A stretch of DNA of 64,000 bases from Eledone cirrhosa (Eukaryota): the NCBI GenBank assembly GCA_964016885.1, contig OZ024743.1:83266001-83330000 (forward strand), given 5' to 3'. Shown piece by piece: positions 1 to 44,438 of this stretch. Made by a program: the position numbers and the translations under genes. Below the pieces are notes generated by a model that was not told the DNA's origin, ran no database searches, and saw only the letters and a list, made by a program, of their open reading frames with translations. Each line of letters begins with the position of its first letter. Within the stretch, counting starts at the first letter, position 1.

Positions 1-88
1 ATGTCGGTGAGCATGTCCAGCTAACCTTAGTCTCCTCTGTGCTACATTTCAGGTGACTTTAGGGAGGCTCCCATACAGCTCTGAGTTC
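1..88 (-). mobile_element. RTE-X-like LINE C-terminal fragment (longer copy at 42243-42515)
   Basis: Minus-strand translation NSELYGSLPKVT*NVAQRRLRLAGHAHRH resembles the end of RTE-X ORFs. Confidence 0.6.
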
Positions 89-238
89 ATATATATATAT
101 ATATATAATATATGTAGTAATAAAGAGTAAATCGTATGTCTAATATTATGAGGGTTGAACCACATTTGTTTGAAATATTTAACCATGAAACAGACAGAAA
201 GATAAAAATATATACAGACCACCTAAATAACTATTATA

Positions 239-320
239 TCTCCCAGACAGATTAGTGATTAATCTGTTTCGCCCTGGGTGTGTTTGTAACAGATAATCCA
301 CGGGCATCATCAGCGAGAGA
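239..320 (-). ncRNA. Type I hammerhead ribozyme, intact core
   Basis: Minus strand: TCTCTCG-CTGATGA-T-GCCC..GGGC-GAAAC-AGATT..AATCT-GTC-TGGGAGA. Stems I, II and III can pair; GUC cleavage triplet. Confidence 0.8.
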
Positions 321-390
321 ATCTGATTAAATGTGAAATATTCATTTTGTGTGACTGTTAACATTAGGTGTTTGTCGCATTTAATCAGAT

Positions 391-476
391 TCTCTCGTTG
401 ATGATTCCCATGGATTAATTATTTGTTACAAAGACACTCAGGGTGAAACAAATTAATCACTAATCTGTCCAGGAGA
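391..476 (+). ncRNA. Hammerhead ribozyme, degenerate copy (core TTGATGA)
   Basis: TCTCTCG-TTGATGA-..-GAAAC-..-GTC-CAGGAGA; inverted partner of 239-320. Confidence 0.6.
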
Positions 477-534
477 TATAATAGTTATTGAGGCGGTCTT
501 TACTGTGTTTATTACTACATATATTATTATTATA

Positions 535-705
535 ATTGTTTCTACTTTAGGCACAAGGCCAGCAATTACTCAGTGCATGACTGGTACTTTATTTTATCGA
601 CCCCGTAAGCATGAAAGGCAAAGTCAACCTCGGCGGGATTTGAACTCAGATTGTAAAGGGACGTAACTATGCTGGAAAGCATGGCGTCCGACCCTCCACC
701 GCCCT
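535..705 (-). mobile_element. tRNA-derived SINE, family 1
   Basis: B-box-like GAGTTCAAATCCC plus core GCCTTTCAT..ACGGGGTCGATAAAATAAAGTACCAG; at least 10 copies in the window. Confidence 0.85.
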
Positions 706-1107
706 TTTATTATTATAATGTTCAGTATTTATACTTTGAGCTTGCTAATTACAGGGTTTCAGTATGAGTTATTAACTCTACCTTTCATTTATATATATAT
801 ATATATATCTATATAAAAACAAATAACGAAACGAAATTAAATTTCGTTTCGTTTGTAACTCACTTTTGTATGACTGATGCTTAAACAATTAAGTTAAAAA
901 TGTACATCTACATATGCATACTGAAATACTAGTATGCATATGAATACACACACGTATACATATGTAGATGTACCAAGTCTTTCACTGGTTACTTTACTGT
1001 GAGTATCCAGCTATTCTGTATGTAAACACACAGACAAGCCGGTTTTTAGAGTCATACTGGTTTTTGAGGAAACACCTTTCCTCTATTCTCCAGAAAGCCA
1101 GACAAGG

Positions 1108-1152
1108 AATATTGAACTAGTTTCGTTGTTGTTACAACTCATCAGCAATATT
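1108..1152 (-). ncRNA. Minimal type I hammerhead ribozyme (palindromic stem III)
   Basis: Reverse complement of 1661-1705. Confidence 0.9.
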
Positions 1153-1660
1153 TACCTATCTACCGGCCTTTCTGGAGAATCGTAAAAGCACATATCGTTA
1201 TATGCTTTTTCTATGAAAATTAGTAGTGGGCAGACTAATTTGCATAGAGTGTGAGTACGTACCGGTTCAACGGAGACGATAAAAACAAATAACGAAACGA
1301 AATTAAAGTTTGTCTGTGTGTTTACATACAGAATAGCTGGATACTCACAGTAAAGTAACCAGTGAAAGACTTGGTACATCTACATATGTATACGTGTGTG
1401 TATTCATATGCATACTAGTATTTCAGTATGCATATGTAGATGTACATTTTTAACTTAATTGTTTAAGCGTCTGTCATACAAAAGTGAGTTACAAACGAAA
1501 CGAAATTTAATTTTGTTTCGTTATTTGTTTTTATCGTCTCCGTTGAACCGGTACGTACTCACACTCTATGCAAATTAGTCTGCCCACTACTAATTTTCAT
1601 AGAAAAAGCATATAACGATATGTGCTTTTACGATTCTCCAGAAAGGCCGGTAGATAGGTA

Positions 1661-1705
1661 AATATTGCTGATGAGTTGTAACAACAACGAAACTAGTTCA
1701 ATATT
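1661..1705 (+). ncRNA. Minimal type I hammerhead ribozyme (palindromic stem III)
   Basis: AATATTG-CTGATGA-GTTGT(AACA)ACAAC-GAA-ACTAGT-T-CAATATT. Perfect core, 7-bp stem I, 5-bp stem II, ACTAGT palindrome, GUU triplet. Stem I is extended by ATTCTCCAGAAAG/CTTTCTGGAGAAT (1633-1645/1716-1728). Confidence 0.9.
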
Positions 1706-1945
1706 CCTTGTCTGGCTTTCTGGAGAATAGAGGAAAGGTGTTTCCTCAAAAACCAGTATGACTCTAAAAACCGGTTTGTCTGTGTGTTTACATACAGAAT
1801 AGCTGGATACTCACAGTAAAGTAACCAGTGAAAGACTTGGTACATCTACATATGTATACGTGTGTGTATTCATATGCATACTAGTATTTCAGTATGCATA
1901 TGTAGATGTACATTTTTAACTTAATTGTTTATATCTATATATATA

Positions 1946-2480
1946 TATTGTTATACTTGGAGAGGGTCATATTGTTAAAATATTGCAAGAAATAATAACA
2001 GAATACACTCACTGTTTGGTTTGGGTTGGTTTTCGCTTCTGTGTCTTATATATCTCCATAGTTAATTTATCTGGCAATCAATGTTTATCATTGATTGACC
2101 AACGGTTAAAAATACAGATATAAATATATATATAGTCTATCGAAGTTCTTTCGACACACATCCGTGGCTCCCGATTCTATCTCTTTGGTTGTAGCCAGAG
2201 AACTGCATGCAATTGATGAATTGTTGGATGTGTCTTTCCATTTCAGTTGGGTCACACATGCGGGACACATTCTTCAACACTCTTACCAAGTCTGCGATCA
2301 GAATATTAAACTTAGCACTATTGGACATTGCAGAGTTTTGAGTATCAGGTATTTGGAGGCCATGGGTTTAGCATAGTGTGAGTGGAGAATTTGGGCCATC
2401 TTGTATGTAGTGATTAACAAGAGTTCCGTGTCTAATACTGGTAGTCTATTGTTAGGATGTTTGGAAGGGTAGTTAAACAT
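1946..2480 (-). mobile_element. Internally deleted PLE remnant (RT thumb fragment fused to 3' pLTR), same family as 17488-19696
   Basis: PSKHPNNRLPVLDTEL..HSHYAKPMASKYLILK matches ORF 18470-19456; 1946-2152 matches 17488-17707. Confidence 0.85.
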
Positions 2481-3124
2481 TATATAACCTCCTCAGTGAC
2501 AAGGCTGTTATTTAGTGTCTCTCCTTTGTTCTGTCCGACACCATCTAGTTTTTGTGAACTCACAAAAACAAGAGATTATTTCTTGTGTTAATTTTTACTA
2601 AACAACAAAACACATTGATTACATCTGAAGGAGCTAAGCTGACAAAGATTTACTTAATGTCTATATTAATGTATGTAAATAATAGAATTATGTGAACCCT
2701 TCAACGATACAGTAATTATTTACAAGTGAAAATATAACAACATTGGAAAAATATATTTCTTCAATATAGTCAATGTTAATCCTAACTTTGCTGACTGTTT
2801 CTCTATACATGGCTTTATGATAATGTCTCCAAAACATGTACCAGACAGTGTTTCAGGTAGCTCTTTACAGTATTAGAACCTTATGTCACCAACGAAACCC
2901 TACACCAACAAATGTCCCTTCAATATCAAAACAGGTCCCTGAAATACAGTTACTCAATCTCTATTTCACAGGTTGACCCAGACATAGTCCTAATGAAAGG
3001 AAATCCTTGTGGAATCATAGGGGTACCTTAGTGACATATAACATTTATTGGGTATTTTAGACCTGGTGGAGACAACACCCTTCTTCCAGATTTGAATACA
3101 CTTGATTTCTTCCAGAGAAAGGGA

Positions 3125-34646: not shown

Positions 34647-36113
34647 ATGGAAAATAAATTGAGTGAGAAGAAGATTAAATGCGAAACATTGTCTAAAGAT
34701 ATGGCTATTCCAGAAGAGATACCAAAGTCTAGAGGAGAGAAGCCATTTCACTGTGATGTCTGTGGTAAATCATTTGTTGTAAGTAGTCACTTAACTAAAC
34801 ACTTACGTACCCATACAGGAGACAAGCCATATGTCTGTGATATCTGTGGTAAATCATTCTCTCAAATTAGTACCTTAACTACTCACAAACGTATACATAC
34901 AGGTGAGAAGCTATACCACTGTGATATCTGTGGTAAATCATTCTCTCAAAGTAGTAACTTAACTTCTCACATACGTACCCATACAGGAGACAAGCCATAT
35001 CACTGTGATATCTGTGGTAAATCATTCTCTCGAAGTAGTAACTTAACTTCTCATATACGTACCCATACAGGAGACAAGCCATATGTCTGTGATATCTGTG
35101 GTAAATCATTCTCTCAAATTAGTACCTTAACTACTCACAAACCTATACATACAGGAGACAAGCCAAATCACTGTGACATCTGTGGTAAATCATTCTCTGT
35201 AAGTAGTCACTTAACTATTCACAAACGTACCCATACAGGAGACAAGCCATATCACTGTGATATCTGTGGTAAATCATTCTCTGTAAGTAGTAGCTTAACT
35301 AGTCACAAACGAATACATACAGGAGACAAGCCATATCACTGTGATATCTGTGGTAAATCATTCTCACAAATTAGTACCTTAACTACTCACAAACGTATAC
35401 ATACAGGAGACAAGCCAAATCACTGTGACATCTGTGGTAAATCATTCTCTGTAAGTAGTCACTTAACTAGTCACAAACGTACCCATACAGGAGACAAGCC
35501 ATATCACTGTGATATCTGTGGTAAATCATTCTCTGATAGTAGTACCTTAACTAAACACAAACATATACATACAGGAGACAAGCCTTACCACTGTGACATC
35601 TGTGGTAAATCATTCTCTGATAGTAGTACCTTAACTAGACACAAACATATACATACAGGAGACAAGCCATACCACTGTGACATCTGTGGTAAATCATTCT
35701 CTGCTAGTGATACCTTAACTAGACACAAACATATACACACAGGAGACAAGCCTTACCATTGTGACATCTGTGGTAAATCGTTCTCTGTAAGTAGTCCCTT
35801 AATTTCTCATAAACGTATACATACAGGTGAGAAACCATACCACTGTGATATCTGTGGTAAATCGTTCTCTGTAAGTAGTGCCTTAATTTCTCACAAACGT
35901 ATACATACAGGTGAGAAACCATACCACTGTGATATCTGTGGTAAATCATTCCCTCGAAGTAGTACCTTATCTAGACACAAACGTATACATACAGGAGAGA
36001 GGACATATCACTGTGATATCTGTGGGAAATCATTCTCTGTAAGTAGTCACTTAACTAAACACTTACATACCCACACAGGTGAGAAGCCATGCCACTGTGA
36101 TATCTGTGGTTAA
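34647..36113 (+). CDS. C2H2 (Kruppel-type) zinc-finger protein, 16 complete fingers, 488 aa
   Basis: 84-bp period, [10 protein letters not shown]...HTGDKPY. Likely splice acceptor TTTCTTATTTCAG at 34274 opens the exon. Confidence 0.92.
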
Positions 36114-37525
<1,412 letters not shown>

Positions 37526-42222: not shown

Positions 42223-42660
42223 TTTATATATATATATATTTAGGGCAGGTAAATTTCCCGAGATCCATGGACGTGTTCTCTCCATCGGTCTCTGTCCCTT
42301 ATCATCACTGCCATGTCCTGCGTCTCCAAGGGACTGGTGTCTGTCCTTAGGGCATCAATATATGTCAACCTCGGTCTCCATCTTCTAGTGTGTCCCACAG
42401 GAACACTGAGTGCAGTGTCAACTCTGAATGTCGGTGAGCATGTCCAGCTAACCTTAGTCTCCTCTGTGCTACATTTCAGGTAACTTTAGGGAGGCTCCCA
42501 TACAGCTCTGAGTTCATATATATATAATATATGTAGTAATAAACAGTAAATCGTATGTCTAATAATATGAGGGTTGAAGAACCACATTTGTTTGAAATAT
42601 TTAACCATGAAACAGACAGAAAGATAAAAATATATACAGACTACCTCAATAACTATTATA

Positions 42661-42742
42661 TCTCCCGGACAGATTAGTGATTAATCTGTTTCGCCCTGGG
42701 TGTGTTTGTAACAGATAATCCACGGGCATCATCAGCGAGAGA
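42661..42742 (-). ncRNA. Type I hammerhead ribozyme, intact core (paralog of 239-320); TTGATGA partner at 42813-42898 (+)
   Basis: TCTCTCG-CTGATGA..GAAAC..GTC-CGGGAGA. Confidence 0.8.
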
Positions 42743-43264
42743 ATCTGATTAAATGTGAAATATTCATTTTGTGTGACTGTTAACATTATGTGTTTGTCGC
42801 ATTTAATCAGATTCTCTCGTTGATGATGCCCGTGGATTAATTATTTGTTACAAAGACACTCAGGGTGAAACAGATTTATCACTAATCTGTCCGGGAGATA
42901 TAATAGTTATTGAGGCGGTCTTTACTGTGTTTATTACTACATATATTATTATTATAATTGTTTCTACTTTAGGCACAAGGCCAGCAATTACTCAGTGCAT
43001 TACTGGTACTTTATTTTATCGACCCCCGTAAGGATGAAAGGCAAAGTTAATCTCAGTGGGATTTGAACTCAGATCGTAAAGGGACGTAACTATGCTGGAA
43101 AGCATGGTGTCCGACCCTCCACCGATACTGCCAATCCACCGCCCTTTTATTATTATTATTATTATGTTCAGTATTTATACTTTGAGCTTGCTAATTACAG
43201 GGTTTCAGTATGAGCTATTAACTCTACCTTTCATTTATATATATATATATATATCTATATATAT

Positions 43265-43800
43265 ATTGTTATACTTGGAGAGGGTCATATTGTTAAAATA
43301 TTGCGAGAAATAATAACAGAATACACTCACTGTTTGGTTTGCGTTGGTTTTCGCTTCTGTGTCTTATATATCTCCATAGTTAATTTATCTGGCAATCAAT
43401 GTTTATCATTGATTGACCAACGGTTAAAAATACAGATATAAATATATATATAGTCTATCGAAGTTCTTTCGACACACATCCGTGGCTCCCGATTCTGTCT
43501 CTTTGGTTGTAGCCAGAGAACTGCATGCAGTTGATGAATTGTTGGATGTGTCTTTCCATTTCAGTTGGGTCACACATGCGGGACACATTCTTCATCACTT
43601 ACCAAGTCTGTGATCAGAATATTAAACTTAGCGCTATTGGACATTGCGGAGTTTTTGAGTATCAGGTATTTGGAGGCCATGGGTTTAGCATAGTGTGAGT
43701 GGAGAATTTGGGCCCTCTTGTATGTAGTGTTTAATAAGAGTTCCGTGTCTAATACTGGTAGTCTATTGTTAGGGTGTTTGGAAGGGTAGTTAAACATTAT
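43265..43800 (-). mobile_element. PLE remnant (paralog of 1946-2480)
   Basis: ORF 43570-43797. Confidence 0.85.
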
Positions 43801-44438
43801 ATAACCTCCTCAGTGACAAGGCTGTTATTTAGTGTCTCTCCTTTGTTCTGTCCGACACCATCTAGTTTTTGTGAACTCACAAAAACAAGAGATTATTTCT
43901 TGTGTTAATTTTTACTAAACAACAAAACACATTGATTACATCTGAAGGAGCTAAGCTGACAAAGATTTACTTAATGGCTATATTAATGTATGTAAATAAT
44001 AGAATTATGTGAACCCTTCAACGATACAGTAATTATTTACAAGTGAAAATATAACAACATTGGAAAAATATATTTCTTCAATATAGTCAATGTTAATCCT
44101 AACTTTGCTGACTGTTTCTTTATACATGGCTTTATGATAATGTCTCCAAAACATGTACCAGACAGTGTTTCAGGTAGCTCTTTACAGTATTAGAACCTTA
44201 TGTCACCAACGAAACCCTACACCAACAAATGTCCCTTCAATATCAAAACAGGTCCCTGAAATACAGTTACTCAATCTCTATTTCACAGGTTGACCCAGAC
44301 ATAGTCCTAATGAAAGGAAATCCTTGTGGAATCATAGGGGTACCTTAGTGACATATAACATTTATTGGGTATTTTAGACCTGGTGGAGACAACACCCTTC
44401 CAGATTTGAATACACTTGATTTCTTCCAGAGAAAGGGA

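What the first reader, a model, noticed from the sequence alone, without database searches (positions are those of the whole stretch)
813..1930. Young retrozyme or viroid-like element: 466-nt circular monomer with an intact hammerhead, integrated as inverted partial multimers
Seen: both arms read through the same 466-nt unit and wrap around it at different phases (814 to 1280; 1308 to 1774), so the template was circular or tandem. Each unit has one perfect minimal type I HHR with the palindromic stem III ACTAGT. The HHR sits in a long extended stem (1633-1728), and the unit has further strong hairpins (GTACATCTACATATG..CATATGTAGATGTAC; AACGAAACGAAA..TTTCGTTTCGTT). There is no credible ORF. The arms differ at only a few bases, and the paralogous (TA)n site at ~43250 is empty, so the insertion probably post-dates the duplication. 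Known: metazoan non-LTR retrozymes and PLE pLTRs carry such minimal HHRs, cleave as dimers and yield circRNAs; PLE insertions often have an inverted 5' part. Inference: a recently active cephalopod-type retrozyme family producing ~466-nt circRNA, mobilised in trans by PLE RT/GIY-YIG.
Basis: partly seen in the sequence, partly recalled or inferred. Interest (0 to 1): 0.92.

Follow-up and report, generated by a model that had tools for sequence, protein, structure and literature searches.

The report
Octopus-type retrozyme inserted as back-to-back arrays
This is one of over a thousand young copies of a 466-base non-coding repeat that carries a hammerhead ribozyme motif and sits in TA microsatellites as two back-to-back arrays with two fixed, different ends, the mark left by Penelope-like jumping genes, so it is likely a small circular RNA that hitchhikes on their enzymes.

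Summary
Observation confirmed. Window 813-1931 is a head-to-head pair of arms (495 nt minus, 624 nt plus) of a 466-nt non-coding unit, flanked by a 7-11-bp target duplication in (TA)n. Each arm has one canonical (not minimal) type I hammerhead with a palindromic helix III. The genome holds 5,114 exact ribozyme copies (about 1,400 insertions), often long tandem arms (up to 29 units); no colinear Penelope ORF in 56 stretches checked. New here: insertion ends fall at two fixed sites (unit 152-158 and 227), and 36 of 37 two-ended insertions pair one of each (1 ambiguous). Young coding Penelope-like elements (PLEs) of this genome follow the same rule. Both arms of an insertion are near-identical (0.18% versus 3.4% between insertions). 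A homologous sister family shows compensatory changes in the ribozyme. Best reading: a non-LTR retrozyme mobilised in trans by a PLE enzyme that primes from both DNA ends, probably on a circular RNA. Not shown: transcription, cleavage, circularity, and the helper family (no homology to six PLE families' ends). A new member of a known class, with unusually clear genomic evidence on how retrozymes integrate.

The parts
813..1307 (-). Left arm, 495 nt = 1.06 units; outer (3') end is the LONG end, unit position 227
1308..1931 (+). Right arm, 624 nt = 1.34 units; outer (3') end is the SHORT end, unit position 158
1308..1773 (+). One full 466-nt unit (reference monomer, arbitrary phase)
1656..1708 (+). 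Type I hammerhead: helix I with bulge, CUGAUGA 1668-1674, helix II 1675-1688, GAAA 1689-1692, palindromic ACUAGU 1692-1697, predicted cut after 1698
   Evidence: Rfam HH9; covariation across three families
1105..1157 (-). Same hammerhead in the left arm (predicted cut between 1115 and 1114)
1633..1728 (+). Extended stem that carries the hammerhead
   Evidence: MFE folds
813..881 (-). 'Tail': 69 nt (unit 159-227) between the two inferred priming sites, present at this end only; holds a 13-bp hairpin
1374..1445 (+). Long AT-rich branched hairpin, structurally conserved in sister family R2
1557..1602 (+). Block most conserved with sister families R2/R3; role unknown (promoter or protein-binding candidate, inferred)
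806..812 (+). Left copy of target-site duplication (7-nt core, up to 11 nt with end microhomology, 804-814)
   Evidence: comparison with empty site
1932..1938 (+). Right copy of target-site duplication (up to 1930-1940)
43236..43266 (.). Empty paralogous (TA)n site in the next segmental-duplication unit

Best explanation
This is a young copy of a high-copy, non-coding, hammerhead-bearing repeat (a non-LTR retrozyme) that was likely written into a TA microsatellite by a Penelope-like element's enzyme priming on both cut DNA ends, probably from a 466-nt circular RNA. Shown: unit, ribozyme motif, copy number, tandem arms, target, target duplication, two fixed ends paired one of each. Inferred steps: (1) tandem source arrays are transcribed; neighbouring hammerheads pair through ACUAGU, cut as dimers, and monomers are ligated into circles; (2) a PLE RT/GIY-YIG protein binds the RNA in trans and makes a staggered double cut in (TA)n leaving 3' overhangs of about 7-13 nt; (3) each 3' end anneals by 2-5 nt to one of two U-rich sites that flank a hairpin (unit 152-158 and 227) and is extended, rolling round the template for 0.1 to more than 20 units; (4) the two cDNAs are joined at unrelated phases by blunt, microhomology or short-insert end joining, giving head-to-head arms. 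The window copy has one ribozyme per arm in opposite orientation, so it would be a dead end that cannot release a monomer.
For: 5,114 exact 33-mer ribozyme matches, 0 for the reversed control. Ends fixed at 152-158 or 225-228; of 56 rows (57 less the duplicated L022) 37 had both ends classifiable: 36 long+short, 1 ambiguous (L123); binomial p about 3e-10 against free pairing. Same rule in coding PLEs here: family A 4 of 4 palindromes, B 1 of 1, F 8 of 10 pairs; R2 sister family 11 of 14 two-armed copies clear, 1 short stub, 2 long/long. It matches the head-to-head pLTR, one-sided tail and 8-10-bp TSD described for PLEs (PMC3846280; PMC8557442) and the two RT start sites and both-strand extension shown in vitro for PAc (PMC11167929). 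Differences: 0.25% within arm, 0.18% between arms, 3.39% between insertions; L073 0 differences over about 20 units on both arms. 35 of 82 arms cross two or more cut sites and only 1 of 82 arm 5' ends lies at the cut site, so cleaved linear monomers are not the template. Arms of 17 units and 29 units. Helices I and II: 92.5% of cells paired, 6 pairs with two-sided changes across R1/R2/R3, slid controls 31-53%. Intact young PLE ORFs exist: family A 104 scored hits at 98-100%, family F 887 aa.
Against: No RNA evidence of any kind was obtained. No helper identified: R1/R2 show no similarity above shuffles to the 3' ends of six PLE families, apart from one 15-nt antisense match to family B among 24 comparisons. 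Two tests for insertion-private variants failed: the variants belong to small lineages (69 matches at 7 loci; 287 matches), and that 7-locus lineage is nearly clonal, so a monomer bottleneck is not proven. Arrays also grow after insertion (block repeats in I086 and L083), so length alone does not prove rolling circle. Arm samples were chosen for full units or ribozyme matches, which inflates the crossing count. In Xenopus only 1 of 9 predicted retrozyme dimers cleaved in vitro (bioRxiv 10.64898/2026.07.22.740005); for PAc, cleavage was not needed for insertion.
Confidence: 0.72

Rival explanations
1. Same non-autonomous PLE parasite and same two-end priming, but the template is an uncleaved linear multimeric transcript of a tandem source array; the hammerhead is protein-gated or dispensable and long arms come partly from later unequal exchange.
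For: Internal initiation needs no RNA end and PAc inserts unprocessed RNA (PMC11167929). Perfectly homogeneous long arrays exist as possible sources. Post-insertion block duplications seen. Private-variant tests did not show a monomer bottleneck.
Against: Needs 8-13-kb transcripts with 17-29 uncut ribozymes; ribozyme helices are kept by compensatory changes across three families; the whole unit folds far better than shuffles (z -10); lineage substitutions in helices mostly keep pairing (12 of 19, against 11 of 34 singletons); related retrozymes accumulate as circles in coral, mussel and axolotl (PMC7229834).
Confidence: 0.2
2. The unit is the pLTR of a coding PLE not sampled here, and these are truncated solo-pLTR insertions.
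For: Architecture is indistinguishable from truncated PLE insertions; GIY-YIG search scored only 150 of 10,593 candidates; Xenopus retrozymes often match PLE pLTRs.
Against: In 56 stretches no PLE ORF is colinear with the unit; 3 have PLE fragments nearby, the one touching it (L063) is a decayed antisense 190-bp piece. Long arms repeat the unit itself, never run into an ORF. None of the 42 PLE loci compared with the unit has it as pLTR.
Confidence: 0.05
3. An endogenised viroid-like replicon or a plain satellite/foldback DNA element that moves without reverse transcription.
For: Size and strong folding resemble viroid-like RNAs; tandem homogeneous arrays resemble satellites.
Against: Ribozyme in one polarity only; fold is branched, 68% paired; 0 matches in viral and metagenome contigs; fixed 3' ends, variable 5' ends, TSDs and dispersal over many contigs are retrotransposition marks; arms end at different positions, unlike terminal inverted repeats.
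Confidence: 0.03

Closest known systems
Metazoan non-LTR retrozymes (Cervera and de la Pena 2020, PMC7229834; Li, Clavereau and Pollet 2026, bioRxiv 10.64898/2026.07.22.740005)
   Same: Non-coding tandem units with one canonical type I hammerhead each, low GC, thousands of copies, strong self-pairing, weak palindromic helix III like axolotl HHR_Amex1, TSD longer than 4 bp, co-occurrence with PLEs.
   Different: Unit slightly longer than the 170-400 nt circles in PMC7229834 (within the 51-972 bp range of the 2026 preprint). Head-to-head arms with two fixed paired ends were not described in the parts of these papers that I read. Unlike 24 of 57 Xenopus families, no homology to a TE end was found. 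Expression untested.
EN+ Penelope-like element insertions (PMC3846280, PMC8557442) and PAc in vitro mechanism (PMC11167929)
   Same: Inverted 5'-truncated copy, tail at one end only, 8-10-bp TSD, (TA)n targets, two RT start sites.
   Different: No ORF; tail 69-75 nt versus 30-40 bp; canonical rather than minimal hammerhead; arms are multimers of one small unit; ends show 2-5 nt target microhomology whereas PAc initiation was reported as non-homologous.
Non-autonomous Chlamys PLEs such as MRC1 (PMC8557442, passage)
   Same: Non-coding PLE parasites with multicopy head-to-tail insertions.
   Different: Those resemble their helper's 3' end and belong to a clade without canonical hammerheads.

Membership tests
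Non-LTR retrozyme | Type I hammerhead in each repeat unit | tested here: met
Non-LTR retrozyme | Short non-coding unit in tandem arrays with two or more consecutive ribozymes | tested here: met
   family-wide; the window copy itself has only one per arm
Non-LTR retrozyme | No protein-coding capacity; no LTR structure | tested here: met
   longest ORF 19/50 aa; ends are not long direct repeats; PBS/PPT not searched
Non-LTR retrozyme | Dispersed mobile insertions with TSD larger than 4 bp | tested here: met
   empty site; TSD about 7-13 nt where the target is not pure TA
Non-LTR retrozyme | Self-cleavage in vitro (monomer or dimer) | not testable with these tools
   cofold predicts an intermolecular helix through ACUAGU; monomer helix III pair probability about 0
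Non-LTR retrozyme | Expressed as monomeric circular RNA | not testable with these tools
   no RNA holder listed
PLE-mobilised element | Head-to-head arms with tail at one end only, AT-rich target | tested here: met
   36 of 37; same in resident PLEs
PLE-mobilised element | Sequence shared with the 3' end of an autonomous PLE | tested here: not met
   six families tested; other families may exist
Autonomous PLE / solo pLTR | Unit continues into an RT + GIY-YIG ORF in some copies | tested here: not met
   0 of 56 stretches
Viroid-like replicon (Avsunviroidae-type; definition recalled) | Ribozymes in both polarities, no genomic DNA template | tested here: not met

The most novel reading that the evidence does not exclude
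A PLE dimer grips one small circular RNA at two sites flanking a hairpin and launches two rolling-circle reverse transcriptions from the two ends of a double-strand cut, writing palindromes of up to about 18 kb from a 466-nt circle that shares no sequence with its helper (recognition by structure); RNA-stage A-to-G changes are carried into the genome on the way. This would be direct genomic evidence for how animal retrozymes integrate and for how PLE head-to-head structures arise without antisense self-priming.
Probability: 0.35. Interest if true: 0.75.

Novelty: new member of a known kind. Interest (0 to 1): 0.5.

Why it matters
Retrozymes are a known class, but their mobilisation by PLEs has rested on co-occurrence and pLTR similarity. 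Here the insertions carry the PLE end signature at scale, in a genome with intact young PLE ORFs and near-clonal retrozyme lineages, so a small defined RNA, two mapped priming sites and two candidate enzymes make the open questions (circle or linear template; one RNP with two start sites; role of the hammerhead) directly testable. It also flags about 1,400 ready-made long inverted repeats as a source of double-stranded RNA and of assembly difficulty.

Tried and rejected
RNA evidence: no RNA holder listed. Four runs of unrecorded kind were laid: X1 shows very deep cover and loose ends into (TA)n at 1460, 1534 and 1926 but may be the source sample; X4 has a single 496-nt contig at depth 4.5 (466 + 30, what a closed 466-nt cycle gives at k = 31), which a tandem array or carry-over would also give, so I do not count it. 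Insertion-private variant test: failed twice. Helper search: GIY-YIG scan, two protein searches, local alignments (55, 75), a degenerate pattern for other ACUAGU hammerheads gave 1 unrelated hit. L061's 1040-aa ORF is an APE-type LINE that splits one insertion, not a helper. L063's adjacent PLE piece is an old antisense fragment. Rfam miRNA hits are hairpin noise far below gathering scores. ADAR explanation of the A>G excess: no neighbour signature (5' G at 3 of 19 sites versus 22 of 147) and no excess in small samples of R2, PLE-A, PLE-F. Fold-back self-priming as the general origin of the inversion: rejected, since the two arms' inner ends usually lie at different unit positions (near-symmetric in L014, L075, L079, L082). 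Literature: 'retrozyme + head-to-head' 0 papers; 'octopus + hammerhead ribozyme' 5 papers, none by title on such an element. The supplement of PMC7229834 and those of the 2026 preprint could not be seen and may list similar elements; PMC5785218 is not held.

Full report
1. Observation. The described structure is in the sequence. Taking window 1308-1773 as the unit, the right arm (1308-1931) reads unit 1-466 then 1-158 on the plus strand; the left arm (813-1307) reads unit 199-466 then 1-227 on the minus strand; they meet blunt and differ at four positions. Both arms point outward in ribozyme sense (head-to-head). Rfam HH9 matches both arms (38.6 bits, E 1.9e-7, below gathering 52). By inspection the core is complete: helix I of 7 bp plus a bulged extension, helix II of 5 bp, palindromic ACUAGU helix III, cut predicted after 1698. 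By the definition in PMC4209133 (passages) this is the canonical metazoan type that needs dimers, not the minimal PLE form. The unit folds at -158.9 kcal/mol, z -10.0, has no ORF over 50 aa. The empty paralogous site gives a 7-11-bp target duplication. A filled paralogue lies about 44.5 kb upstream (L022).

2. Family. The 3.0-Gb genome has 5,114 exact copies of the 33-nt ribozyme core, control 0. The first 100 matches fall in 27 loci over 56 Mb, which extrapolates to about 1,400 insertions (my estimate). I examined 30 best-scoring loci, 26 of those 27 loci and 6 further loci of one young lineage. Nearly all lie in (TA)n. Outer ends fall at unit 152-158 ('short') or 225-228 ('long'). Of 57 rows, 19 had fewer than two recognisable ends and L022 duplicates the window copy; of the other 37, 36 pair one short with one long end and L123 is ambiguous (a 14-nt stub). 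L061a and b are one more short+long insertion split by a LINE. Inner ends are scattered and joined blunt, by 1-8 nt of overlap or by short inserts. Where the target is not pure TA, duplications of about 7-13 nt with 2-5 nt of end microhomology are visible.

3. Template. Units differ by 0.25% within an arm, 0.18% between arms, 3.39% between insertions. 35 of 82 arms cross at least two cut sites and 1 of 82 stops at one (sample enriched for ribozyme-containing arms). Arms reach 17 and 29 units. So both arms come from the same sequence variant, and the template is a circle or an uncut multimer. I tried to separate these with insertion-private variants and failed: both candidates mark small lineages, and later block duplication also occurs. 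L127 switches in register between two subfamily variants.

4. Selection on RNA structure. A colinear 442-nt sister family R2 (2,011 candidates) and a variant R3 share layout and end positions (11 of 14 two-armed R2 copies clearly short+long, 1 stub, 2 long/long). Across 15 chosen R1/R2/R3 copies helices I and II show six pairs with two-sided changes, 92.5% pairing, slid controls 31-53% (sequences are related, so shuffles are not probabilities).

5. Helper. The genome holds at least six PLE families. Families A (98-100% identity, many open frames of 775 aa or more) and F (887 aa) are young. They insert in (TA)n with the same short+long rule (A 4 of 4, B 1 of 1, F 8 of 10, with one unclear and one inverted duplication). 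No copy of the unit is colinear with a PLE ORF (0 of 56 stretches) and no PLE end resembles it beyond chance. The enzyme class is therefore well supported, the family is open.

6. Known work. Read: PMC7229834 parts 2-4 of 6: retrozymes are expressed as circles in coral, mussel, axolotl, and PLEs are proposed as mobilisers of rolling-circle cDNA. bioRxiv 10.64898/2026.07.22.740005 parts 1-3 of 5: co-occurrence and pLTR homology in vertebrates; mechanism left open; 1 of 9 dimers cleaved. PMC11167929 parts 1-2 of 4: both strands cut and extended, two internal start sites defining the tail, predicted dimer. Passages only: PMC8557442, PMC3846280 (head-to-head, one-sided tail, 8-10-bp TSD, explained there by antisense self-priming), PMC7761336, PMC4209133, PMC9977147 (61, little bearing). 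Searches found no description of this family or of head-to-head retrozyme insertions; subscription papers, Repbase and two sets of supplements were not seen. Earlier scan notes report PLE-type ends on other non-coding tandem units, so the pattern is probably widespread; I did not test them.

7. Verdict. A real, very young non-LTR retrozyme family: new member of a known kind. The added value is the genome-wide pairing rule and shared variants across both arms, which tie retrozyme mobility to two-ended PLE priming. Class assignment about 0.9; full mechanism including circular template 0.72.

Noticed in passing
L104:1501-1942; L071:3590-3960; L003:501-700; L055:2857-3056: Sister retrozyme families R2 (442-nt unit, 2,011 candidates) and R3, colinear with the 466-nt unit, same palindromic helix III, same two-end architecture.
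   Followed up: partly
R1 family, unit positions listed: Variants inherited through the element's cycle are 17 of 44 A>G on the ribozyme strand versus 9 of 131 among unit-private changes (Fisher p 2.5e-6). Could be RNA editing, RT error or mis-polarisation by majority; no ADAR neighbour preference seen.
   Followed up: partly
L073, L121-L127: Near-clonal 468-nt lineage at 7 loci, about 70 units almost without differences, probably still active; L127 changes subfamily in register.
   Followed up: yes
L089:3809-6622; L179:1748-4408: Two very young, abundant coding PLE families with intact RT + GIY-YIG frames; four further families (B-E) share related tail or ribozyme motifs.
   Followed up: partly
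window 1650-1664 (unit 343-358) versus family B long end (L099): A 15-nt exact antisense match between the ribozyme's 5' flank and the end of PLE family B; probably chance among 24 comparisons.
   Followed up: no
window 1-3100 versus 42428-44414, and L022: The region is a tandem segmental duplication of about 42-44 kb (flanks 93-99% identical), with a C2H2 zinc-finger-type 84-bp array at 34733-36769.
   Followed up: partly
window 213-502: A separate 290-bp imperfect inverted repeat (MITE-like), also present in the duplicated unit.
   Followed up: no
L061:3788-6907: 1040-aa APE + RT + PHD LINE frame inserted inside a retrozyme palindrome.
   Followed up: partly
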